From an uncultured Chloroflexia bacterium (GTDB lineage: Bacteria > Chloroflexota > Anaerolineae > Anaerolineales > Anaerolineaceae): DNA of 24,000 nt. The position numbers were made by a program, and so were the translations under genes. The notes beneath the pieces were generated by a model. It saw nothing but the letters and a program-made list of their open reading frames with translations, had not been told where the DNA came from and made no database searches. The stretch lies in the NCBI GenBank assembly GCA_963768585.1, contig CAVYIF010000015.1, positions 86,683-110,682 of the forward strand, read 5' to 3'. Positions 77 to 21,052 of this stretch are shown piece after piece (the first letter of the stretch is position 1; each line of letters starts with the position of its first letter).

Positions 77-2213
77 TCATCCCGCCAGTACCACGATGCG
101 CCAGTGGAGCGGCGTAAGGACCGCCTCCTGCCCGTTGACGTTCTCCTGCAGCTCGATCACCCGTCCGGAAAGCAGGTCTTCAGCTTTGCCGCCGGCGAAG
201 AACCCTGAGGGGAAACGCAGGGTAGCCTGATCGCTGCCGGCGGGGAAAAAGACGAACACCAGGCGCTTGCCCAGGGCTGTACCGTACTTGATGTACAGGA
301 AAGCATCCCGGCTGCCACCCTGCATGTGCGGCGAAGCGCCGGGCTGCCGGGTCAATACCTCAATCTCCGGATGCCAGCCGGCAGAAAGCATGATTGTTTG
401 CAGGAAGCGCTCGAAACCGGGCGTCCAATCCTCAAAATAAGCTTCGCCCAGGTAGCTGCCGATCAGGATCACCCGACCCTGGCCGACCTTGATCTCGTTG
501 ACCAGGGCGCCATCGCGGGTGGACGACCAGATTTTGCCCTGCCCGGGCTGCCAGGGCGTCATCCACTGCGCCATGCCCATGGTAAGCTGTTCGCCGCCGG
601 TCTGCACGCTGAGCATCTCACCGGTCAGGTTGCGCCGCCCCACCTCATGCACGCCTGCCAGACGCGCGGTGAAGCGCTCCTCAGGATAGCGGTAGATCCC
701 GGCCGGGCTGAAGGCTCCGCACTCCGATTCGCACACCAGGGTGCCGCCCCGATGCACGAAAGCCGCCAGGGCGCGCTCGGTAGCCTCGCTGGTGACGACA
801 ACATGCGGCATAAAGAGCACTTTCAGGTCGTCAAGCACCTCCAGGTGCTCCTCTTCGACCACCATATAAGGGATCGAACGCCGCACCAGGGCGCGGGCAT
901 AGCCCTGCAGGGCGCCGGCCACACGCTTCGCGCTCCATTCCTGGGCCCAGTTCAGGTAGTAGGTCTGCGGGCTGAACAGCACCCCCACCGCAGGCTGCAC
1001 CGGCTGGTAAGCCTCGATCAGCGCCTGGTGGCGCTCGATCACTGCGGCGCTGGCGCCCATCGCCGCCAGGCGTTCCTCGGCCAGGCCGTCGTCGCCGGCG
1101 ATGCCAAAACCGCCCGAACTCGCGTCCAAAGATCTCATTGCGCCAGCACCAGAACAGGATCTTGTCCGCCCCACAGGCGATGCCGTTCCACACCCAGCGC
1201 TGCTGGGAAAAGGCGTCCACCGGCTTGTAGGCGGTAAAACCCACCGCCGAGCGCCCGCCCTGCACCTCGCTCAGCCAGACTTTCTTGCCGCGCGCCGCCG
1301 AACGCACAAACTCCACGCGCATGCCAAAGGCGGCCTCGTCGATATTCTCCCAGATGGGGAAGCTCGAGGTACCCACCCCGTCCAACTCGTCGGCGTAGAA
1401 CCAGTCGTTGCCGCGGTCGATGGCGTAGAAGAAGCGCTCCGGCTGGCCCACGTGCAGCGGGCTGGGCGCCGCGGCGTGTACCGTCACCGGGCGGTCCGGA
1501 TCGATGCCCTTGAGCAGGTCGTAGCGCGGTTTGCCGTGCTGGTTGGCGCGCCAGGTGAGGAAATGCTGCCAGGCCATCATATCGGTATAGGGCCGGTCGG
1601 GCGTCTTGCCGGGCATCACCTCCTGCCAGTCGCCGTAGCGCCGCTGCCAGGCGGCATTTAGCCCCTCCAGCCCACCGTATTTTGCCGAGAGCCACTCGCG
1701 GTAAGCCGCCAGGGTATGCGGGCAGAAGCACACCAGCCCGTCAGCCTGTACATTCCAGCGCAGTTCGTTCCAGGCATCCCAACCCACCAGGTTGGGCGCG
1801 CTGCGGTAGCGGGTGCCCGTCTGGCGCAGAAATTCGGCCATGCGCTCCCAGATCCCCGGGTGATCGAAACAGCCGCCGGGGGTGAGGCCAAAATGGATCT
1901 CGCCGCGGTTGGAGGAAATCACCTTGTGCCCCATGTGGTCGATCATTTCGCTATCGGGCACGGTATGGTGAATCCAGTAGGGGTGGATTTCGGCGATGGT
2001 GCTCAGCACCACGTTCAGGCCGTGTTTGCCGGCCAACTCCACCAGACGGTCGTAATCGTCATAATTAAACTGGCCCGGTTTGGACTCCACCCAGGCCCAT
2101 ACCACCCACAGCTGGACGGTATCCAGGCCGGACTGCTTGATTTTGGCGAAATCGGCTTCCCAATAGGTGTCAACCGGGAAAGGCGGACGGTAGTACTGCA
2201 CTCCGAGGTTCAT
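77..2213 (-). pseudogene. GH42-family beta-galactosidase, split by one frameshift
   Basis: Minus-strand ORFs 831..2225 and 77..1174 are two parts of one GH42-like enzyme. The first is the N-terminal TIM barrel (GVQYYRPPFP, WDAWNELRW, WLSEVQGG). The second is the middle and C-terminal domains. The frames join at ~1120-1130 (ILFWCWRNEIFG / DASSGGFGIAGDDG). Start placed at ATG 2213, with GAGGA 5 nt upstream. Confidence 0.8.
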
Positions 2214-2287
2214 AGGGGTCCTCAAATTTCTCCTTTCTTTATTCTAATGGGGAACCGGCAGGCGCTGCATGGCGGTTCCCCATGTGG

Positions 2288-4973
2288 TTAAATTTTTTCC
2301 AGATCGGCGGCGATGGCCTGCATGACCATTTGGTTAAACACGTTGGGCTCGAAGGCAGAAAGCTGGCGCAAGGTAAAACTCTGCGCCATTTCGGCCTGGA
2401 AGCTCTTAGCCGCCCCGGGGATGTGGCGTTCGACCACCGCTACGGCCGCTTCGCTGGCGAGCAGTTCTTTGACCGTGCTGTCCAGGGTCAGGCGCAGCGC
2501 AGTCTGAGGTTGACCGCCAAATATTACATCCGCGCTCAGAGTGAAGGCTGCCGCCGCGCGGATCTGCCGGGAGGAACTGCCCAACAGCCCCTCAAAAGCC
2601 CCGGCTTCCGCCATCCAGCAGTGCCGGCCTTCGTCAAAGAAAGCCAGCGCTTCCTGCCCGATCTGGAAGGTGACGGTGCGCGTCTCGTCGGGCAGGAGAT
2701 CGATCTTGGCAAAACCCTTGAGCTCTTTTTCGGGGCGCTGTACCTGGCTGCGCTCGTCGCGCACGTACAGTTGGACGACTTCCATCCCGGCCCGCGGACC
2801 GGCGTTGGTCACGTCCACGCTCACGGTGAGGGTTTCACCAGGGGCCATGACCGAACGATTCAAGCGAAGGTTGGTGTAGGCAAAGCTGGTGTAAGACAGC
2901 CCAAAACCAAAGGGGAACAGCGGGACAATGTTCTTCTTTTCGTAATAGCGGTAACCCACAAAGATGCCCTCGCCGTAATGCACTTTACCGTTTTCACCCG
3001 GGTAATTGATGTAGGCCGGGTTGTCTTCCAGACGCATCGGGAAGGTCTGCGACAGGCGCCCGCTGGCATCCTGTTTGCCAAAGACCACGTCGGCAATCGC
3101 GTTGCCGCATTCCTGTCCGGGGAACCAGGCCTGCAGCACTGCGCCGGCCCGCTCCAGCCAGGGCATGGCCACCGGCGAACCGGTCTGCAGCACGACCACC
3201 GTGTTGGGGTTGGCGGCAGTCACTGCTTCGATCAAAGCCGCCTGCGATCCAGGTAGCTCCAGATCGGGTTTGTCGGCGCCTTCGCTCTCCCATTCACCGT
3301 TGGTGCCCACAAACACCAGGGCCACCTCGGCCTGACCGGCCAGGGCTGCCGCCTGCTGCAGGCCATCATCCGGCGGCAGTAAGGTGCTGCCCAGGCGCAC
3401 CCCGGCAATTATCCCGGCCTCCTGCTTGCTGAATTCCATCACCAGGGCCAGGGGTGTGCCGGCGGTCACCTTCAGAACCACCGTCTGCTCGCTGCTGCCC
3501 ATGCCCATGAACGAGTCGCCTTTCTCCTGGTATGTCCAGTTATCGATGGCCAGCTTGCCATCCACCAGCAGCCGGCAGCGCCCGGAACTGGCCAGGCCCA
3601 GGACCATCTGCCCGCTTTCTGCGGGCGTGTAAATGCCGCTGATGCGCGCCGAAAAAGCCTGGGGATTAACGCCCGGCACGGCCTCGTTCATCCACACCTG
3701 TTCAGAGGTGGGCTGCGTGGTGGTATATACCGGCTCGCCGGACAGGTCCAGGTTGTTAAATATTCGGCGTGGAAGCCATGCTCCGCGCCGAGGGACTGGC
3801 GAAACCAGGGCAGATCCAGGCGCGGAGTGAATTTGTGGTTGACGCAGCCCAGGGCATAACTAACCTCAACCTCTTTTCCCAACTGGGCGGTGATCCCCTG
3901 GTAGGGGGTGACCGCATAGTGGGCATTGACCTGGGCGCTGCCGCCGCCCATGATCTGCGCCGTGCGCGCATTGGGGCCGATCAGGGCAATCATATTCAAT
4001 TTTTGCGGGTCGAGCGGCAGCAAACCCGCCCGGTTCTTAAGCAAAACGATGCCTTCGGCCGCCGCCTGACGGGCAACAGCACTGTGCTCGGGGCGGATCA
4101 CCGCTTTTTCGGCGAAATCGGGAGGTGTATCGAAGGCGCCCACTCGTTCGGATAAGGTTAACATGCGCGCCGCGGCGCATCACACCGCCTGGCTCACTTC
4201 CCCGGCCTGCACCGCCTGCACCAACCGCTCCCCGCGCCACATGGACGGCCCGGGCATTTCCAGATCCAACCCGGCATTGGCCGCGGTGGCTGTGCTATTG
4301 GTGCCGAACCAGTCCGAAATCACGATCCCGTCTAAGTCCCATTCCTCCGCAGAATTTCGCCAGTTCGGTGTGGTCGAAGCATAAGTGCTATTGATGCGGT
4401 TGTAGGAGGACATCAGGCACCACGTGCCGCCTTCTTTTACGGCAGCCTCGAAAGGCGCCAGGTAGATCTCGCGCAGGGGGCGTTCATTTACTTCCGAGCT
4501 GTTCGAATCGCGCTCAACCGGCATGTTCCAGACAAAGTGCATAGTGGCCGGCACACTGAGGCTCGCACCACGAATATAGGCCGCCGCCATGCGGGCCTAA
4601 AGGAAGGGGTCTCGTAATAGCACTCAAAGTTGCGCCCGTTGAGCGGCGAGCGGTGGATGTTGACGGTCGGGGCCAGCAGCACCCGGGCCCCCTTGGTATA
4701 GGCCTCCTCGCCCAGGGCCTGGCCCACCTGCTCCACCAGGGCCGTATTCCAGGTCGCCGCCAGGCCAATCCCGGCGGGGAAGCAGGCCGCGGTCTGCCCC
4801 ACGCCAAACAAATCGCCGCGCGAGCGTTCGGCCGTCGGTGACTTTGATCGCTGGGAAGCCCATACGTTCCACCCGGTTGGTCAGCCACATAGAGGCCCGG
4901 CCATCAGGGAAACTTTTTCCACGAGTGTCATGTCTTTGATCAATTTTTCGACACGATTACTGGGTTTGTTCAA
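2288..4973 (-). pseudogene. GH3 beta-glucosidase with PA14 insert and Fn3-like C-terminal domain, multiply disrupted
   Basis: Five minus-strand ORF pieces tile one GH3 protein: MTLVEKVSLMAG, RMGFPAIKVTDG, GVGQTAACFPAGIGLAATWN, LAPTVNIHRSPLNGRNFECY, GIVISDWFG (nucleophile Asp), then the C-terminal domain, a PA14 insert (ISGIYTPAESGQ...) and FGFGLSYTSF. Lesions: indels at ~4891-4900, ~4823-4834 and ~4608-4613; in-frame TAG at 4597-4599; in-frame TGA at 4180-4182; an indel in a T-run at 3758-3760. Start taken as TTG 4973 (AAGGA upstream). Confidence 0.85.
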
Positions 4974-7089: not shown

Positions 7090-7784
7090 ATGGCAACCGT
7101 GTTTATGAAGTGGTTGGAAACCAGCCCAAAGGATTACGACCGCGGGATTCAACTGCTTACCCTGGGCAGAATCCAGCGCGTCAAAGAGAGAATCGCAAAC
7201 AGTTATGCGCATGAAGGGACGCGTATCCTGGAGATCGGCTGCGGCACGGGAACGCTCACCCTGCTGATGGCGCAGCGCGGCGCGACGGTCACCGGCATTG
7301 ACGCCTCGCCGCGCATGCTGGCCGAGGCCGAAAAGAAAGTCAAAGAGGCGCATCTCGAAGAAAACATATCCCTGAAATATATGGACGCCGCCCTGATCGG
7401 CGACCGCTTTCCCGCCGCATCCTTTGACCTGATTGTGTCTACACTGGTCTTCAGCGAACTTCCGCTGGATGACCAGCGTTTTGTTCTGGAAGCCTGCCAG
7501 AAACTGCTCACGCCGGACGGTCGCCTGCTGATCGCGGATGAGGTGATCCCTGCCAGGCTCATCCCGCGCCTGTTCTTTTATCTGGCGCGTTTGCCCCTGG
7601 TGCTGCTTACCTGGCTGCTCACGCGCACCAGCACCGCCTCCCTGCGCGATTTTGACGCGCTGCTGGCCCAGACCGGATTCCGTACGGAGGCTTTCCAATC
7701 GTATCTGGGGGGCAGCCTGGTTCTGTACGAATCGACGCTTGCCACGTGCCGGAGAAGACGCAACCGGCCTGCCGCCAGCAGTGA
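7090..7784 (+). CDS. class I SAM-dependent methyltransferase next to the HgcA-like corrinoid protein; 3' end uncertain (probable frameshift)
   Basis: ILEIGCGTG motif I at 7225-7251, DLIVSTLVFSE, LLTPDGRLLIADE, and a hydrophobic insertion RLIPRLFFYLARLPLVLLTWLL. As assembled, the frame runs without a stop to 8103, out of frame over the next gene. A 1-nt correction near 7740-7750 would end it at TGA 7782-7784. Confidence 0.7.
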
Positions 7785-8716
7785 CCGGCAGGCTGCGGCA
7801 TCGGGTCACGCTGCGCACGCTGCTGCTGGATCTTGGCTGTTATTTTTTCGCATTATCCCGCCCTTATCCCAAGGTGCGCACCGGGCTGTACGCGGTCGGG
7901 CACCCCAATTCGTCTTCGCCCGTGCTGGTGACCGGCAACTTCGACCTGACCGTACGCCGGCTGGTCCAGGCTATCGATGGAAAGGTCAACGTATGGGTGC
8001 TGGTGGCCGATTCGGCCGGGATCAACGTGTGGTGCGCGGCAGGCGGCGGCTACTTCACCGCCGAAAAAGTGATCGCGGCGGTAAAGTCGTCCCATCTGAA
8101 TGAAGTGGTCAGGCACCACGCCCTGATCCTGCCCCAGCTGTGCGCCAACGGCGTGGACGGCTGGCGCATACGCGAAGAAACCGGTTGGGGCGTGCATTGG
8201 GGGCCGGCCCGCGCGGCGGATATCCCGGCCTACCTGGCGGATAAGCGCAAGAAGACGGATGCGATGCGCTGGGTTCGTTTTCCGCTCAAAGACCGCCTGG
8301 AAATGGTTACGGTCACATTGGGATTTTATGCCCTGCTGATCTTACTGCCGGTGTTTATTTTCTGGCGGGATCTGTTCTGGCCGATCACGGCCAGCCTGTT
8401 GGGCTTATCGTATTTCTATGCCGTCGTTCATCCCTGGCTGCCCGGCCGCGACGGCCTCTACAAAAGCATCCCGCTCGCCGGCATCGCCCTGGCCGGGCTG
8501 TTTATCTACGCCGTCCTGTGGGGGCCGCTGCCGGCTCAGCAAATTTTTCATTGGGGGATCGGGTTGACGGCGCTGTCGGTTTTTTCCGCGGCCGAACTGC
8601 AAGGCATGTCGCCGCTGATGCGCGGCGAACAGGCCAATTGGGGCTATGAAGCGGTCATCGGTCTGGCACTGGGCGCGATTTATTGGTTGGTCCCGCTGGC
8701 TATTGGATGGAGGTAA
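7781..8716 (+). CDS. HgcA-like corrinoid-binding membrane protein (cap-helix NVWCAAGG, C-terminal TM domain)
   Basis: GLYAVGHPNSSSPVLVTGNFDLT, VLVADSAGINVWCAAGGGYF (8024-8047), ALILPQLCANGV and GPARAADIPAYL, followed by 4-5 hydrophobic helices. Start is uncertain: GTG 7781 (GTGA overlap), TTG 7739, or a fusion to the methyltransferase. ATG 7652 is rejected because it overlaps conserved methyltransferase sequence. Confidence 0.8.
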   Translation: MTGRLRHRVTLRTLLLDLGCYFFALSRPYPKVRTGLYAVGHPNSSSPVLVTGNFDLTVRRLVQAIDGKVNVWVLVADSAGINVWCAAGGGYFTAEKVIAAVKSSHLNEVVRHHALILPQLCANGVDGWRIREETGWGVHWGPARAADIPAYLADKRKKTDAMRWVRFPLKDRLEMVTVTLGFYALLILLPVFIFWRDLFWPITASLLGLSYFYAVVHPWLPGRDGLYKSIPLAGIALAGLFIYAVLWGPLPAQQIFHWGIGLTALSVFSAAELQGMSPLMRGEQANWGYEAVIGLALGAIYWLVPLAIGWR

Positions 8717-8720
8717 GCGA

Positions 8721-17920: not shown

Positions 17921-18020
17921 AAGGAACCATCGCAGCACTGGGCCGTCGAGGGGTTAACCTGCGGTTTAGGATAAAGCCAATCCACCGGACAGGCCGGGAA
18001 AAATCTGGCCAGGTGTATTT

Positions 18021-18167
18021 TTATTTCTCGACCCGGCGTCCTTCCAAAAAGCGGGTTACATGCCGTTGCATATCCAGCGGCGGTAAATCCCCATTGGGAA
18101 GTGCGCTGCCCAGCATGGTCATATACATCAATGGTCCTAACAATGAAGCCACGGCATGCAGACGAAA
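18021..18167 (-). pseudogene. possible gene remnant (TetR-like C-terminal end?)
   Basis: A short stop-to-stop frame reads ...LHAVASLLGPLMYMTMLGSALPNGDLPPLDMQRHVTRFLEGRRVEK. It has no credible start or RBS, and the assignment is a guess. Confidence 0.2.
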
Positions 18168-18186
18168 TTAATTCCAGGAGAATCCA

Positions 18187-18834
18187 ATGACCATCATCGC
18201 GGAACTTTTAGGTGACGCTAAATTCATCATCCAATTCCGCCAGAGAATTATGAATCAGCAGAAAATCCTGGATCGACAGGCGCCCAGGGCCGGGGAAATG
18301 GCGCCCGATTTCACCCTTCAGGATGTTTCAGGGACAGAAACCGTCACCCTATCTGGCTTTCGCGGTAAAAAACCGGTGGCACTGGTCTTTGGGAGTTATA
18401 CCTGACCGCCTTATGTGAATGGGACCGTGCGTCTCCATGAGATCTATGAACAATATCACCAACAAGTTCAGTTCTTGAATATCTACATCCGAGAAGCCCA
18501 TCCCATCGATGGTTGGTGGCTGGGCCGGCGCCTGACAAGAAAAATCTTTAAGACCTTTTTCTCCAGGGCCTCGATGGATCATTACGACCCCAAGACCATC
18601 GAAGAACGCCGGGCGGTCGCCGGGGAATGCGAAACGGCGCTGCAATACGGCATACGAACCTACGTCGATGAAATGGATGACCACGTCAATCGCGCTTATG
18701 CCGCCTGGCCAACGCGGTTATATTTGATCGACCTGGATGGGAAGGTTGTATATGCCGGTGGGTTGGGACCCTATGATTTCAAACCCGCAAAATTAAACGC
18801 TGCCATTGATGATTTTCTGAATGATCTGGACTGA
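18187..18834 (+). CDS. iodothyronine-deiodinase-like thioredoxin-fold protein, probable selenoprotein (TGA 18403-18405 read as Sec)
   Basis: ORFs 18187..18405 and 18415..18834 are in the same frame, separated only by a TGA. The joined protein reads ALVFGSYT-U-PPYVNG...FLNIYIREAHPIDGWW. This matches the deiodinase FGS.T(U/C)PPF and Y(I/V).EAHP.DGW blocks. AGGAG lies 6 nt upstream of the start. Confidence 0.75.
18419..18438 (+). promoter_or_regulatory. candidate bacterial SECIS hairpin
   Basis: AUGGGAC-CGUGC-GUCUCCAU forms a 7-bp stem with one bulged U and a G/U-containing 5-nt loop. It starts 13 nt after the UGA. Confidence 0.5.
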
Positions 18835-18939
18835 AGGTTTGCCCATTTAACCGCGTGCCTTACCCCAGGCTCAAAGAAACTTTTTTGACAAACAACTCGC
18901 CGCATAAAACCACACACCAGCAGGCACTCGATCAGAAAA

Positions 18940-20340
18940 TCACGCTGATTGAGAAGCCGGTTTAGATTCCCGCTTCGACTCATCCTTTAGCGCCGAGGTC
19001 ACAATGCCCAGCACGGCCACGCCGGACGCCACCAGGAAGCCCTGATCAACCCCGCTGAACAGGGCAGCGGGCGTGTTTTCGGCCAGATGGGTGGTGAAAA
19101 TCGCCCCGGCCAAACCAATGCCCAACACCATGCCAAAATTGCGCGACACGGCCTGCACCCCCGAGGCGATGCCCTGGCGCGCGCGCGGTGCGGCGCCCAT
19201 CAAGGCGCTCGTATTGGGCGAGATAAATGCGCCTGTGCCAACCCCGGCCACAGCCAAACCGAGCACAGCCAGCCACAGCCCAGTCTCGGAACCCAGTCGC
19301 GAAAGCAAGAACAGGCCCACGGCCAACACGCCCATGCCCAGCATCCCCGGCAAACGCGAACCGACGCGATCCGAAAGCGCGCCGCTGATCGGCGCGACGA
19401 TCGCCATCAGGATCGGCTGGACGGTCAGAAACAACCCGGCCTGGGCGGGGTTCAACCCGCGGCCTTGAATCAGGTAGAAGGGCATCAAGAAGATAATGCT
19501 GTAAACGCAGATGTAATTCAGCACCGCGCTGCCTGCCGCGGTCGAAAACAGCGGGATGCGGAAGAGGCTCAAATCCAGCATGGGCGCCGGGGAACGGCGT
19601 TCGATCTGGATAAAAACGGCCAGCAGAACCAGCGCCCCGGCCAGCAGTCCCAACACCGCCAGGGAAGACCAGCCCCACGCTGCCCCTTTATTGAGCCCCA
19701 GCATGAAGGCCGTCAGTCCGGCCAGGAAAACCGCCGCCCCCGGCAGGTCGAAGCGCTGTCCACTTTCTGCAGGCGCATCCCTGGGGATGAAGCGCAGGCT
19801 GAGGGCCAGGGCCAGCGCCCCGACCGGCATGTTAATGTAGAATACCGCCCGCCAGTCAATCACATGGGTCAGCCAGCCGCCTAAAGATGGCCCAACGGTT
19901 AATCCCAGGTAGGTCATCGTCGAAACCAGGCCAAAAGCGCGCCCGCGCTGCTCGGGTGGGATGTTGCCGGTCACAATCGCGGGCGCATTGGAGGCCAGCA
20001 TGGCCCCGCCGATGGCCTGCAGCCCGCGGAAAACAACCAGTGCTGTCGCTGACCAGGCCAGGCCGCACAGCGCCGAACCGGCGACGAAGATGCCGAAGCC
20101 CCAGACGTAGATCGATTTATGCCCGCGCAGATCCCCCAGGCGGCCGAAGGTCAGCAGCAGCCCGGTCAGCACCAGCAGGTAAACGGTCACCACCCATTCG
20201 ATGGCGGCCACATCGCTGTCGAAAGCCGTGCGCAGGACGGGCAGGATAGTGTTGACCACGCTCGCGTCCAGGGCCGACATAAAAGAGCCCACGCCAATCA
20301 CGATGAGCACCCACCATTTACGATCGATGTTTTTTAGCAT
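18940..20340 (-). CDS. MFS transporter, DHA2 (EmrB/QacA, 14-TM) drug:H+ antiporter family
   Basis: Start at ATG 20340 (GAGGTGGA upstream). Contains MSALDASVVNTILP, GRLGDLRGHK and LQAIGGAM. Confidence 0.85.
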   Translation of the reverse strand: MLKNIDRKWWVLIVIGVGSFMSALDASVVNTILPVLRTAFDSDVAAIEWVVTVYLLVLTGLLLTFGRLGDLRGHKSIYVWGFGIFVAGSALCGLAWSATALVVFRGLQAIGGAMLASNAPAIVTGNIPPEQRGRAFGLVSTMTYLGLTVGPSLGGWLTHVIDWRAVFYINMPVGALALALSLRFIPRDAPAESGQRFDLPGAAVFLAGLTAFMLGLNKGAAWGWSSLAVLGLLAGALVLLAVFIQIERRSPAPMLDLSLFRIPLFSTAAGSAVLNYICVYSIIFLMPFYLIQGRGLNPAQAGLFLTVQPILMAIVAPISGALSDRVGSRLPGMLGMGVLAVGLFLLSRLGSETGLWLAVLGLAVAGVGTGAFISPNTSALMGAAPRARQGIASGVQAVSRNFGMVLGIGLAGAIFTTHLAENTPAALFSGVDQGFLVASGVAVLGIVTSALKDESKRESKPASQSA

Positions 20341-20557
20341 TCCACCTCGAATTGTGTGATTTCTTGAATAAATATGCGGGTGAATACAGGTTGCCTTCGA
20401 TCGGCACCCGTACGATGCTCGGGGCATCTTCGGTGGCAGAGATGCGGATCAGGATGAAAGAATTGGTCATATCATCAAATAACTGGTCGTCCAATGATCG
20501 AAGAGTGACTTTATCTTTGTCACGTTTATAAACAGCCAACATATATAATAAAGCTAA

Positions 20558-21052
20558 ATGGATCAACGAAAATCTTCAGCACACCATCGCCGGTCAATCC
20601 GGATAAAGGACTATGATTATGCCCAGGCCGGGGCTTATTTTGTAACTATCGTTACACAAAACCGGGCGTTCTTTTTCGGCAACATCACAGATGGTGAATT
20701 CCATGCGAATGAGGCCGGGGAAATGATCAAACATTGGTGGTATGAACTGGCCCATAAATTTCCCAATGTTGAAACCGACGAATTCGTCGTGATGCCCGAT
20801 CATTTTCATGGAATTATTATACTCACCCAGGGAACACACACAGGTGCGCCCCTATCGGAAATTGTGCAATGGTTTAAAACGATGACCACGAATGCCTATA
20901 TTCGCGGGGTAAAACTTGCGGGGTGGCTGCCCTTCGAAGGAAAATTGTGGCAGCGCAATTATTATGAGCATATCGTCCGAAATATGACTGATATGGAACG
21001 CATACAAAAATATATTCAAAATAACCCATCATCTTGGGAACATGACCGGTAA
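20558..21052 (+). CDS. REP-associated tyrosine transposase (RAYT; IS200/IS605 TnpA-like Y1 HUH enzyme)
   Basis: 164 aa with RRSIRIKDYDYAQAGAYFVTIVTQ, the HUH motif MPDHFHGII, and the Tyr motif LWQRNYYEHIVRN. Lies in a low-GC patch. Confidence 0.8.
   Translation: MDQRKSSAHHRRSIRIKDYDYAQAGAYFVTIVTQNRAFFFGNITDGEFHANEAGEMIKHWWYELAHKFPNVETDEFVVMPDHFHGIIILTQGTHTGAPLSEIVQWFKTMTTNAYIRGVKLAGWLPFEGKLWQRNYYEHIVRNMTDMERIQKYIQNNPSSWEHDR

What the first reader, a model, noticed from the sequence alone, without database searches (positions are those of the whole stretch)
18187..18834. In-frame TGA at the redox motif of a deiodinase-like thioredoxin-fold protein: probable selenocysteine
Seen:
- The two ORFs 18187..18405 and 18415..18834 share a frame. 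The only interruption is TGA 18403-18405.
- Read through, the protein is ...KKPVALVFGSYT-TGA-PPYVNGTVRLHEIYEQYHQQVQFLNIYIREAHPIDGWW...
- Thirteen nt after the TGA lies a hairpin AUGGGAC-CGUGC-GUCUCCAU (18419-18438) with a bulged U and a G/U-containing loop.

Established:
- Iodothyronine deiodinases and their bacterial homologues have FGS.T(U/C)PPF with Sec or Cys at exactly this position, followed by a Y(I/V).EAHP.DGW block.
- Bacterial SECIS elements are hairpins starting ~11-20 nt after the UGA, with a bulged U and G in the apical loop.

Inference: this is a Sec-containing deiodinase-like (peroxiredoxin-like) protein that ordinary gene callers will split or truncate.

Caveat: the window has other in-frame stops that are clearly lesions. 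The motif position is what makes this one different.
Basis: partly seen in the sequence, partly recalled or inferred. Interest (0 to 1): 0.7.

Follow-up and report, generated by a model that had tools for sequence, protein, structure and literature searches.

The report
Selenocysteine-coding deiodinase-like gene, Chloroflexota

Summary
Window 18187-18834 (+) is one 215-codon gene, interrupted only by TGA 18403-18405. It belongs to the iodothyronine-deiodinase family: Pfam PF00837 at E 1.9e-25, with mouse Dio3 and Dio2 as the best sequence and fold matches.

The TGA aligns with the catalytic Sec of Dio3/Dio2 and with the Cys of 124 Cys-type bacterial homologues. The same codon is TGA in all 83 sequences examined (the window plus 82 loci, mostly Anaerolineales/Chloroflexota MAGs, 54-76% identical). 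Codons on both sides show free synonymous turnover, so this is not a lesion.

A 5-bp hairpin with a CGUGN loop (18421-18435) starts 15 nt after the TGA.
- It is 97.8% paired across the family.
- It has compensatory changes.
- It coincides with a local collapse of synonymous variation.

This fits a bacterial SECIS.

TGA is an ordinary stop elsewhere in the window. The Sec machinery could not be checked in this genome. However, three related contigs carry a second known selenoprotein gene (AhpD-like, CxxU) with a classical GGUC-loop SECIS.

Bacterial deiodinase-like selenoproteins were described in 2005, so this is a new member of a known kind. Its substrate is unknown.

The parts
18176..18180 (+). 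Shine-Dalgarno-like AGGAG, 6 nt upstream of the ATG
   Evidence: Read directly from the sequence. Not tested further.
18187..18834 (+). Complete coding sequence of the 215-residue deiodinase-like selenoprotein: ATG 18187, Sec codon 73, true stop TGA 18832-18834
   Evidence: The translation is uninterrupted apart from one TGA. Pfam PF00837 scores E 1.9e-25, 90 bits against a cut-off of 27. The gene aligns end to end with 82 homologous loci. The AF2 model has pLDDT 82, and its best PDB matches are Dio3 (4tr3) and Dio2 (9h48).
18403..18405 (+). UGA codon 73, read as selenocysteine, in the motif F68-G-S70-Y-T72-U73-P-P-Y76
   Evidence: The codon is TGA in 83 of 83 sequences. It aligns with the Sec->Cys residue of mouse Dio3 and Dio2 and with Cys in 124 domains of cluster representatives.
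18421..18435 (+). Core SECIS-like hairpin: stem GGGAC (18421-18425) with GUCUC (18431-18435), apical loop CGUGC (18426-18430). It encodes G79-T80-V81-R82-L83.
   Evidence: RNAalifold predicts exactly this helix. It is 97.8% paired. Pair 21:31 occurs as GC 64, UA 13, AU 1 and CG 1. No shuffle out of 500 reaches the observed covariation score. Loop G (18427) is invariant and the following U is at least 90% conserved. Synonymous-codon entropy is 0.29-1.01 bits here, against 1.5-2.5 bits for 4- to 6-fold codons in the flanking regions.
18419..18438 (+).
   Evidence: It folds this way in the window. The outer pairs are not conserved in the family.
18484..18516 (+). Deiodinase signature Y100-I-R-E103-A-H105-P-I-D-G-W110, the edge of the Dio-type insertion
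   Evidence: These columns are invariant in alignment A1. They align with VYIEEAHPSDGW of Dio3 and VYIDEAHPSDGW of Dio2. The corresponding Dio2 residues Tyr157, Glu160 and His162 have been proposed as a proton relay, and Trp167 as a stacking partner (PMC11592359).
18628..18630 (+). Cys148 (TGC), the only other Cys in the protein; candidate resolving thiol
   Evidence: Cys148 is invariant in A1 and A3 and is present in the consensus of the wider family. Its role is inferred. Its distance to Sec73 could not be measured.

Best explanation
Window 18187-18834 is a single gene for a soluble, 215-residue thioredoxin-fold protein of the iodothyronine-deiodinase family.

During translation, UGA at codon 73 is recoded as selenocysteine. 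A small mRNA hairpin lies inside the coding sequence, with a 5-bp stem starting 15 nt after the UGA and an apical loop C-G-U-G-N. By inference it acts as a bacterial SECIS that recruits SelB-GTP-Sec-tRNASec to the ribosome. The later UGA at 18832-18834 has no such element and terminates translation.

Sec73 sits where the catalytic Sec of animal deiodinases and the catalytic Cys of bacterial Cys-type homologues sit, after strand beta1 in F-G-S-x-T-U-P-P. The same Ser/Thr/Tyr/Glu/His network as in Dio2 and Dio3 surrounds it.

By inference, the selenolate attacks an oxidising or halogenated substrate, such as a peroxide (as in peroxiredoxins) or a carbon-bound iodine or bromine (as in deiodinases). 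The resulting Se-OH or Se-X intermediate would be reduced back by the invariant Cys148 and/or an external thiol system.

Shown here: gene integrity, family membership, the position of the TGA, conservation of the TGA, and conservation and covariation of the hairpin. Inferred: actual Sec insertion, SelB dependence, the substrate, and the role of Cys148.
For: - **Single TGA.** The frame is interrupted by one TGA only.
- **Family.** PF00837 scores 90 bits, E 1.9e-25. phmmer against the PDB gives Dio3 4tr3 at E 1.7e-16 and Dio2 9h48 at 7e-14, with the TGA column on the Sec->Cys residue and EAHPxDGW aligned. The AF2 model has pLDDT 82 and pTM 0.81. Its top Foldseek hits are 4tr3 (TM 0.77, rmsd 2.7 A) and 9h48, ahead of ResA and Prx proteins.
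- **Conservation of the TGA.** It is TGA in 83 of 83 sequences (window plus 82 loci, 54-76% amino-acid identity), never TGC, TGT or TGG. Neighbouring conserved residues use 4-6 synonymous codons on both sides of the TGA, so both halves are translated in this frame under purifying selection.
- **Cys homologues.** Among 50%-identity cluster representatives, the site is Cys in 124 domains. It is 'W' in 3; one of these was read as DNA and is TGA. Another 29 hit rows do not cover the site, many of them short proteins that begin just after it.
- **Hairpin.** RNAalifold finds it de novo. It is 97.8% paired, against 52-57% when the partner is slid by 1-2 nt. Four standard pair types occur at one position plus a GC variant at another. 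The loop G is invariant. Synonymous entropy collapses over exactly codons +6 to +10. A Cys-type homologue (TGT) has no comparable hairpin. A distant marine Sec-type homologue has a different, stronger hairpin at the same place.
- **TGA is a normal stop in this genome.** The gene itself, the DUF885 gene (full-length Pfam match) and the MFS gene all end in TGA.
- **Sec use in the lineage.** AhpD-like CxxU genes (TIGR01926, 88.9 bits, above the cut-off) with an in-frame TGA followed by a hairpin (GCCGC-GGUC-GCGGC in L010, a near-identical GGUC-loop hairpin in L016, a different hairpin in L005) lie on three of the same contigs. Five MAGs carry two TGA-containing paralogues each. The literature reports selenoproteins and tRNASec in Chloroflexi (PMC1794560, PMC5389517, PMC5736913).
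Against: - No selA, selB, selD or tRNA-Sec lies in the 24-kb window or in 1.26 Mb of homologous flanks. The rest of this genome could not be reached.
- The hairpin is short (5 bp, about -4 kcal/mol consensus). In the window alone it is not distinguishable from shuffled sequence. It matches no Rfam model.
- The 13 U-A variants at pair 21:31 may descend from a single event, so the number of independent compensatory changes is small, about four.
- Part of the hairpin's conservation could reflect the conserved peptide G-T-V-x-L, although that would not explain the loss of synonymous variation.
- The window contains genuinely broken genes, so sequence quality or pseudogenisation is an issue locally.
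- No experimental evidence exists for Se incorporation or for any activity.
Confidence: 0.93

Rival explanations
1. The TGA is a lesion: a nonsense mutation (for example TGC/TGT or TGG to TGA) or a sequencing error in a decaying gene, like the other broken genes in the window.
For: The window has fragmented GH3 and GH42 genes. TGG to TGA or TGC to TGA is a single substitution.
Against: The same codon is TGA in 83 of 83 independent sequences from different MAGs and samples, at 54-76% protein identity. Both halves remain under purifying selection with abundant synonymous change. No frameshift or second stop occurs in the gene.
Confidence: 0.02
2. The UGA is read through or recoded without selenium, with insertion of Trp, Cys, Gly or Arg by a near-cognate or suppressor tRNA. 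The conserved hairpin stimulates read-through and is not a SelB-binding SECIS.
For: The Sec machinery was not found in any sequence available here. The hairpin is small and matches no curated SECIS model. The UGA-C context (TGACC is invariant) is known to terminate weakly (own knowledge).
Against: The site is the catalytic Sec/Cys column of a redox family. A Cys outcome would be far more simply encoded by TGY, which never occurs in this clade. A Trp or Gly there would destroy the active site. Related contigs carry a second gene of a known Sec family with a classical GGUC-loop SECIS. The loop shares the N-G-U-N motif at nearly the same distance from the UGA (loop G at +24 here, against +21 in the AhpD-like gene of L010).
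Confidence: 0.04
3. Two separate small proteins are made: a 72-residue product (18187-18405) and a 139-residue product (18415-18834), as gene callers annotate.
For: A GTG at 18415 could serve as a start. Databases hold about 100 such 132-147-residue calls.
Against: The putative downstream start is not conserved. Codon +4 is GTC, GTT, GTA or ATC in most relatives, and callers choose different starts. The two halves together form one thioredoxin fold, and neither half contains a complete fold. The frame is always preserved across the TGA.
Confidence: 0.01

Closest known systems
Bacterial 'deiodinase-like protein' selenoprotein family (Zhang, Fomenko & Gladyshev 2005, Sargasso Sea selenoproteome, PMC1088965; listed in reviews PMC9312934 and PMC13188914)
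   Same: It has the Pfam PF00837 domain. Sec is encoded by an in-frame UGA at the thioredoxin-fold redox position. Cys-containing homologues exist. A bacterial-type SECIS hairpin with a G in a small apical loop lies directly downstream. The function is unknown and presumed to be redox.
   Different: The reviews give the family's redox motif as UxxC. This clade has T-U-P-P-Y/F with no Cys at +3, which is the animal-type motif. It comes from Anaerolineales/Chloroflexota MAGs and not from marine surface plankton. Within the clade sampled here (83 sequences) it is exclusively the Sec form.
Animal iodothyronine deiodinases Dio1-3 (structures 4tr3 Dio3 and 9h48 Dio2)
   Same: They are the best sequence and fold matches (about 26% identity, TM 0.74-0.77). 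Sec lies at the same column in F-G-S-x-T-U-P-P-F/Y. Y..E-A-H-P-x-D-G-W and the Dio-type insertion after it are conserved.
   Different: There is no N-terminal membrane anchor; residues 3-31 are predicted as a soluble helix. Sec is inserted through an in-ORF bacterial hairpin and not a 3'-UTR eukaryotic SECIS. There is no Cys at -2 (Dio3 Cys168). The insertion is about 10 residues longer. The relay His (Dio3 His219) is present in the window (H132) but is Ile or Val in many clade members. Thyroid hormones are not expected substrates.
NCBIfam NF038285 'deiodinase_rel' (347-residue bacterial deiodinase family protein)
   Same: The C-terminal catalytic half matches (model positions 174-340, 181.6 bits).
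   Different: The score is below the family cut-off of 250 bits. The roughly 170-residue N-terminal part of that model is absent here.
Peroxiredoxin and ResA-type thioredoxin-fold oxidoreductases (PF08534 Redoxin, PF00578 AhpC-TSA)
   Same: The fold is the same, and the nucleophile sits at the same position after beta1. Weak Pfam matches lie above cut-off (34 and 30 bits). Structural hits have TM about 0.5 normalised to the query.
   Different: The scores are far weaker than for PF00837. The EAHPxDGW insertion is absent from Prx and ResA proteins. There is no CxxC.

Membership tests
Iodothyronine deiodinase family (Pfam PF00837) | Profile score above the curated gathering threshold | tested here: met
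   90 bits against a cut-off of 27, E 1.9e-25, covering residues 30-206.
Iodothyronine deiodinase family (Pfam PF00837) | Active-site motif F-G-S-x-T-(U/C)-P-P-(F/Y), with Sec or Cys after strand beta1 | tested here: met
   The window has FGSYT-TGA-PPY. It aligns residue for residue with FGSCTCPPF of 4tr3 and FGSATCPPF of 9h48, where the aligned C is the Sec->Cys mutation. The model places strand E64-70 just before the motif.
Iodothyronine deiodinase family (Pfam PF00837) | Y-x-x-E-A-H-P-x-D-G-W signature and the Dio-type insertion that follows it | tested here: met
   Y100, E103, A104, H105, P106, G109 and W110 are invariant in A1. They align with Dio3 and Dio2.
Iodothyronine deiodinase family (Pfam PF00837) | Thioredoxin fold closest to solved deiodinase catalytic cores | tested here: met
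   Foldseek ranks 1-2 are 4tr3 and 9h48, with E 5e-11 and 2e-10 and target-normalised TM 0.77 and 0.74.
Iodothyronine deiodinase family (Pfam PF00837) | N-terminal transmembrane anchor (a feature of the animal enzymes) | tested here: not met
   The N-terminus MTIIAELLGDAKFIIQFRQRIMNQQKILDRQ is charged and amphipathic. It is predicted as a soluble helix spanning residues 3-31. This was judged by inspection only.
Iodothyronine deiodinase family (Pfam PF00837) | Reductive deiodination activity | not testable with these tools
   This needs enzymology.
Bacterial selenoprotein gene (Sec decoding) | In-frame UGA conserved among orthologues, with coding conservation on both sides | tested here: met
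   TGA is present in 83 of 83 sequences. Conserved amino acids with synonymous turnover occur at codons -34 to +40.
Bacterial selenoprotein gene (Sec decoding) | Homologues with Cys aligned to the UGA | tested here: met
   124 Cys-type domains are found among 150 cluster representatives. The DNA of one of them (L083) reads TGT.
Bacterial selenoprotein gene (Sec decoding) | SECIS hairpin immediately downstream of the UGA, with a G in a small apical loop | tested here: met
   The stem starts 15 nt after the UGA. The loop is CGUGN with an invariant G, and the stem covaries. Synonymous variation is suppressed. Caveats: the stem has only 5 bp, the window sequence alone is not significant, and there is no Rfam hit.
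Bacterial selenoprotein gene (Sec decoding) | selA, selB, selC (tRNA-Sec) and selD in the same genome | not testable with these tools
   Only 24 kb of this genome is available, and it holds none of these genes. The source contig was not retrievable. As a proxy, AhpD-like CxxU selenoprotein genes lie on three related contigs.
Bacterial selenoprotein gene (Sec decoding) | Selenium actually incorporated at the UGA | not testable with these tools
   This needs 75Se labelling or mass spectrometry.
NCBIfam NF038285 deiodinase_rel | Whole-protein score above the curated cut-off, with full-length architecture | tested here: not met
   The score is 181.6 bits against a cut-off of 250. Only model positions 174-340 of 347 are matched.

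The most novel reading that the evidence does not exclude
This Sec-only Anaerolineales clade keeps the animal-type deiodinase catalytic constellation: S-x-T-U-P-P, Y..E-A-H-P-x-D-G-W and the insertion loop. It could therefore be a genuine selenium-dependent reductive dehalogenase acting on iodinated or brominated aromatic compounds in sediments and soils. That would be a corrinoid-independent route of organohalide reduction in Chloroflexota and a plausible bacterial ancestor of thyroid-hormone deiodination. The alternative is a generic peroxidase or thiol oxidoreductase.
Probability: 0.12. Interest if true: 0.75.

Novelty: new member of a known kind. Interest (0 to 1): 0.3.

Why it matters
- **Annotation.** In public protein collections this gene family is almost always stored wrongly. 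It appears either as a 132-147-residue fragment lacking the active site or as a full-length product with a spurious Trp from genetic code 4. Knowing that the TGA is Sec restores a complete redox enzyme that is widespread in Anaerolineales, often in two copies per genome.
- **Biology.** It adds a well-sampled, Sec-only clade with a defined mini-SECIS to a family whose function in bacteria is still unknown. It also shows that the animal-type T-U-P-P motif exists in bacteria.
- **Limits.** It does not open a new question. Bacterial deiodinase-like selenoproteins have been known for two decades.

Tried and rejected
- **Rfam.** A scan of 18380-18480 at E<=10 gave no family. The whole-window scan found only three riboswitches elsewhere.
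- **tRNA-Sec.** ARAGORN found none in the window or in the 80 genome-scan loci L003-L082. ARAGORN may miss the 8/4-type tRNASec reported for Chloroflexi (PMC5389517).
- **SelD and SelB probes.** This is uninformative about the genomes as a whole.
- **Source contig.** Looking up the window's DUF885 protein to find the source contig returned 'not on record'.
- **Gene neighbourhood.** Across 83 loci no neighbouring gene family is conserved. The only frequent 'neighbour' is the antisense ORF overlapping the gene itself. No operon partner therefore hints at function.
The outer two pairs were rejected as a family feature.
- **Alternative fold.** The minimum-energy pairing of the 60-nt window sequence (18431-18435 with 18439-18443) is not conserved and scores below shuffles.
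- **Single-sequence thermodynamics.** This was rejected as evidence, with z-scores of -0.61 and +0.47.
- **Second Cys-type control.** The DNA of P0134 was not available.
- **Literature.** A search for experimentally characterised bacterial thioredoxin-fold deiodinase homologues found none in the library.

Full report
**Observation**

An ATG at 18187 is preceded by AGGAG at 18176-18180. It opens a frame that runs to TGA 18832-18834, and TGA 18403-18405 is the only interruption. Read through, the product has 215 residues with ...KKPVALVFGSYT-U-PPYVNGTVRLHEIYEQYHQQVQFLNIYIREAHPIDGWW..., as quoted.

The hairpin AUGGGAC-CGUGC-GUCUCCAU occupies 18419-18438. A 28-nt excerpt folds exactly that way with one bulged U. 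Taken alone, this hairpin is not remarkable. It folds at -6.6 kcal/mol with z = -0.61 against dinucleotide shuffles. In a 60-nt context the minimum-energy structure uses another pairing. That alternative pairing is not conserved in relatives.

**What the protein is**

- Pfam assigns the read-through product to the iodothyronine deiodinase family, PF00837 (90 bits, cut-off 27, E 1.9e-25). Secondary matches to Redoxin and AhpC-TSA are much weaker.
- Against solved structures, the best sequence matches are mouse Dio3 (4tr3, E 1.7e-16) and Dio2 (9h48, E 7e-14).
- The printed alignments put the TGA column on the Cys that replaces the catalytic Sec in those crystal constructs (FGSCT-C-PPF and FGSAT-C-PPF). 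They also align IYIREAHPIDGW with IYIEEAHPSDGW and VYIDEAHPSDGW.
- An AlphaFold2 model built on 23 sequences has pLDDT 82 and pTM 0.81. In Foldseek it finds 4tr3 and 9h48 first (target-normalised TM 0.77 and 0.74), ahead of ResA and peroxiredoxin-type proteins.
- Ser70, Thr72, Tyr100, Glu103, His105 and Trp110 correspond to Dio2 Ser127, Thr129, Tyr157, Glu160, His162 and Trp167. In Dio2 these have been proposed as a proton relay and loop anchor (PMC11592359).
- The protein lacks the membrane anchor of animal deiodinases.
- It scores below cut-off for the longer bacterial NCBIfam model NF038285 (181.6 against 250 bits, C-terminal half only).

**Is the TGA a lesion or a codon?**

This was the central question, because the window does contain broken genes. 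A GH3 gene lies in at least four pieces between 2291 and 4880, and a GH42 gene lies in two overlapping frames between 80 and 2243.

The protein search gave 1828 homologues. Of the best 120, about 100 are 132-147-residue products that begin just after the TGA position. The 15 near-full-length hits that were aligned all carry 'W' at the site. The DNA of two of the 'W' proteins shows an in-frame stop there, so 'W' is a genetic-code-4 miscall and not a TGG codon.

A scan of one genome per species returned 80 further loci. Nearly all are Anaerolineales or other Chloroflexota MAGs, 54-76% identical at the protein level. In all 83 sequences (window plus 82 loci) the codon between FGS[FY]T and PP[YF] is TGA.

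Conserved residues on both sides use their synonymous codons freely. Examples are Ala -34 with 4 codons, Leu -29 with 6, Arg +29 with 5 and Gly +40 with 4. Both halves are therefore translated in this frame and are under purifying selection. A nonsense lesion cannot be maintained like this.

TGA is otherwise a normal stop in this genome. The gene itself, the DUF885 gene (whose Pfam match is full-length) and the MFS gene all end in TGA. That rules out wholesale reassignment of the codon.

**Cys homologues**

A profile search of 1.84 billion cluster representatives found 6753 relatives. Among the best 150, the aligned site is Cys in 124 domains, typically in GS[YF]TCPPF or GNFTCGPF. It is 'W' in 3, and 29 hit rows do not cover the site, many of them short proteins that start just after it.

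The DNA of one Cys form reads TGT. The DNA of one 'W' form, from a Tara Oceans contig, reads TGA. The UGA therefore aligns with a catalytic Cys, which is the classical signature of a selenoprotein.

**The RNA element**

Sixty nucleotides from the TGA align without gaps in all 83 sequences. RNAalifold predicts a single helix, columns 19-23 with 29-33, enclosing a 5-nt loop. In the window these are 18421-18425 with 18431-18435, and the loop is 18426-18430.

- The helix is 97.8% paired, against 52-57% when the 3' partner is slid by one or two columns.
- No shuffle out of 500 reaches its covariation score.
- Pair 21:31 occurs as G-C (64), U-A (13), A-U (1) and C-G (1). The U-A form couples a synonymous GGG to GGU change with a Leu to Ile change.
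- Pair 22:30 is once G-C instead of A-U.
- The 13 U-A sequences may share one origin, so there are roughly four independent compensatory events.
- The second loop base (G) is invariant and the third (U) is at least 90% conserved.

The strongest single piece of evidence for an RNA-level constraint is codon usage. Within the majority amino acid, synonymous-codon entropy at codons +6 to +10 (G-T-V-S/R-L) is 1.01, 0.62, 0.84, 0.29 and 0.41 bits. For 4- to 6-fold degenerate codons in the flanking regions examined it is 1.5-2.5 bits.

The bulged U is one of two registers compatible with the data. The Cys-type homologue has no comparable hairpin. The distant marine Sec-type homologue has a different, stronger hairpin at the same position. 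No Rfam model matches.

**Sec machinery**

This part could not be closed. The window holds no tRNA, and none of its genes is selA, selB or selD. None of the 80 genome-scan loci (L003-L082) holds a tRNA-Sec detectable by ARAGORN. Recalled E. coli SelD and SelB probes hit nothing in the window or any locus (1.26 Mb). The source contig could not be retrieved.

Indirect support is good.
- A de novo scan of the loci for conserved TGA-bridged ORFs recovered the deiodinase-like family. It also recovered one other convincing family with ...N-x-C-x-F-U-(M/L)-x-x-H..., present in L005 (two copies, one about 300 nt downstream of the deiodinase-like gene), L010 and L016.
- That family matches TIGR01926, 'peroxidase-related enzyme' (88.9 bits, cut-off 81.8, for the L010 protein). 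It is the AhpD-like CxxU selenoprotein family listed in PMC13188914.
- Fifteen nucleotides after the TGA, the L010 gene carries GCCGC-GGUC-GCGGC and the L016 gene a near-identical GGUC-loop hairpin, a classical bacterial SECIS; the L005 copies have a different hairpin. Its loop G-U lies 3 nt closer to the UGA than in the deiodinase-like hairpin.
- Five MAGs carry two TGA-containing deiodinase-like paralogues each.
- The literature records selenoproteins and tRNASec in Chloroflexi.

**Mechanism**

Shown: one gene, a deiodinase-family fold, UGA at the catalytic position, and a conserved SECIS-like hairpin.

Inferred: SelB-dependent insertion of Sec73. Also inferred is a selenolate that attacks a peroxide or a carbon-bound halogen, followed by reduction of the oxidised selenium. 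The reductant would be Cys148, which is the only other Cys, is invariant in the clade, and is present in the wider family consensus, and/or an external thiol system.

No conserved neighbouring gene points to a substrate. No experimentally characterised bacterial homologue was found in the literature library.

**Comparison with what is known, and novelty**

Bacterial Sec- and Cys-containing deiodinase-like proteins with bacterial SECIS elements were described from the Sargasso Sea metagenome in 2005 (PMC1088965). They are listed in current reviews.

This gene meets every testable criterion of that family. It differs only in detail:
- The motif is T-U-P-P-Y/F, not the UxxC given in the reviews.
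- The lineage is Anaerolineales.
- The sampled clade is Sec-only.
- The SECIS is very small.

It is a new member of a known kind. Interest is modest (0.3) and lies mainly in annotation and in the comparative definition of the SECIS. The most novel reading that remains open is that the clade is a true selenium-dependent dehalogenase (probability about 0.12).

Noticed in passing
window 13462-13550, 14090-14178, 14381-14469 (minus strand); ORFs 12954-13364 (-) and 13832-14116 (-); 12347-12883 (-); 11254-12402 (-): There are three Rfam RF03167 c-di-GMP-I-GGC riboswitch aptamers (79, 69 and 61 bits, all above the gathering score). At least two precede paralogous small ORFs that begin MLRNVKFLFVILAVLVIAGSAYAFAAANTV..., which looks like a signal peptide; the second copy appears disrupted. 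Downstream on the same strand lie an S24/S26 signal-peptidase-like gene and a DUF5305 gene. This may be a riboswitch-controlled secreted-protein/signal-peptidase cassette.
   Followed up: partly
window 80-2243 (-) and 2291-4880 (-): A GH42 beta-galactosidase is split over two overlapping frames. A GH3 glycosidase is split into at least four pieces.
   Followed up: partly
L005 TGA at 10931 and 15250 (+); L010 TGA at 2150 (+); L016 TGA at 20106 (-): A second selenoprotein gene family lies on contigs that also carry the deiodinase-like gene. It is AhpD-like (TIGR01926) with a C-x-x-U motif (NDCSFU, NACRFU, NQCMFU). A GGUC-loop SECIS hairpin lies 15 nt after the TGA in L010 and L016, and a different hairpin follows in L005.
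   Followed up: yes
database proteins P0001-P0007, P0009-P0011, P0013, P0015, P0027, P0032, P0035, P0126; loci L001, L002, L084: Public metagenome gene calls translate the Sec codon as Trp, because short contigs were called with genetic code 4. 'FGSFTWPPYV' in the databases is therefore an artefact. About 100 other entries are truncated to the C-terminal 132-147 residues.
   Followed up: yes
loci pairs L006/L017, L012/L030, L013/L031, L014/L035, L010/L039: Five MAGs carry two deiodinase-like paralogues on different contigs, and each has the TGA.
   Followed up: no
window 18001-19000 and 20001-21000; 20558-21052 (+): The deiodinase-like gene region has 50% G+C (GC3 0.58), whereas its neighbours have about 64% (GC3 0.75-0.83). 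An IS200-like Y1 transposase ORF lies 1.7 kb downstream, in another low-GC stretch. This may indicate horizontal acquisition. It was not tested.
   Followed up: no
window 7090-8100 (+) and 7652-8713 (+): A SAM-methyltransferase ORF overlaps, in a different frame, an ORF with a CdhD (CO dehydrogenase/acetyl-CoA synthase delta) C-terminal match. A small 4Fe-4S ferredoxin ORF follows at 8646-8972. This could be a frameshifted fusion or genuinely overlapping genes.
   Followed up: no
L084 193-864 (+): A distant marine (Tara Oceans) Sec-type relative has TGA at the same site but a different, 8-bp hairpin (GUCUCCAA-GUU-UUGGGGAC-like, about -10 kcal/mol) downstream. The SECIS sequence is therefore clade-specific, while its position is kept.
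   Followed up: partly
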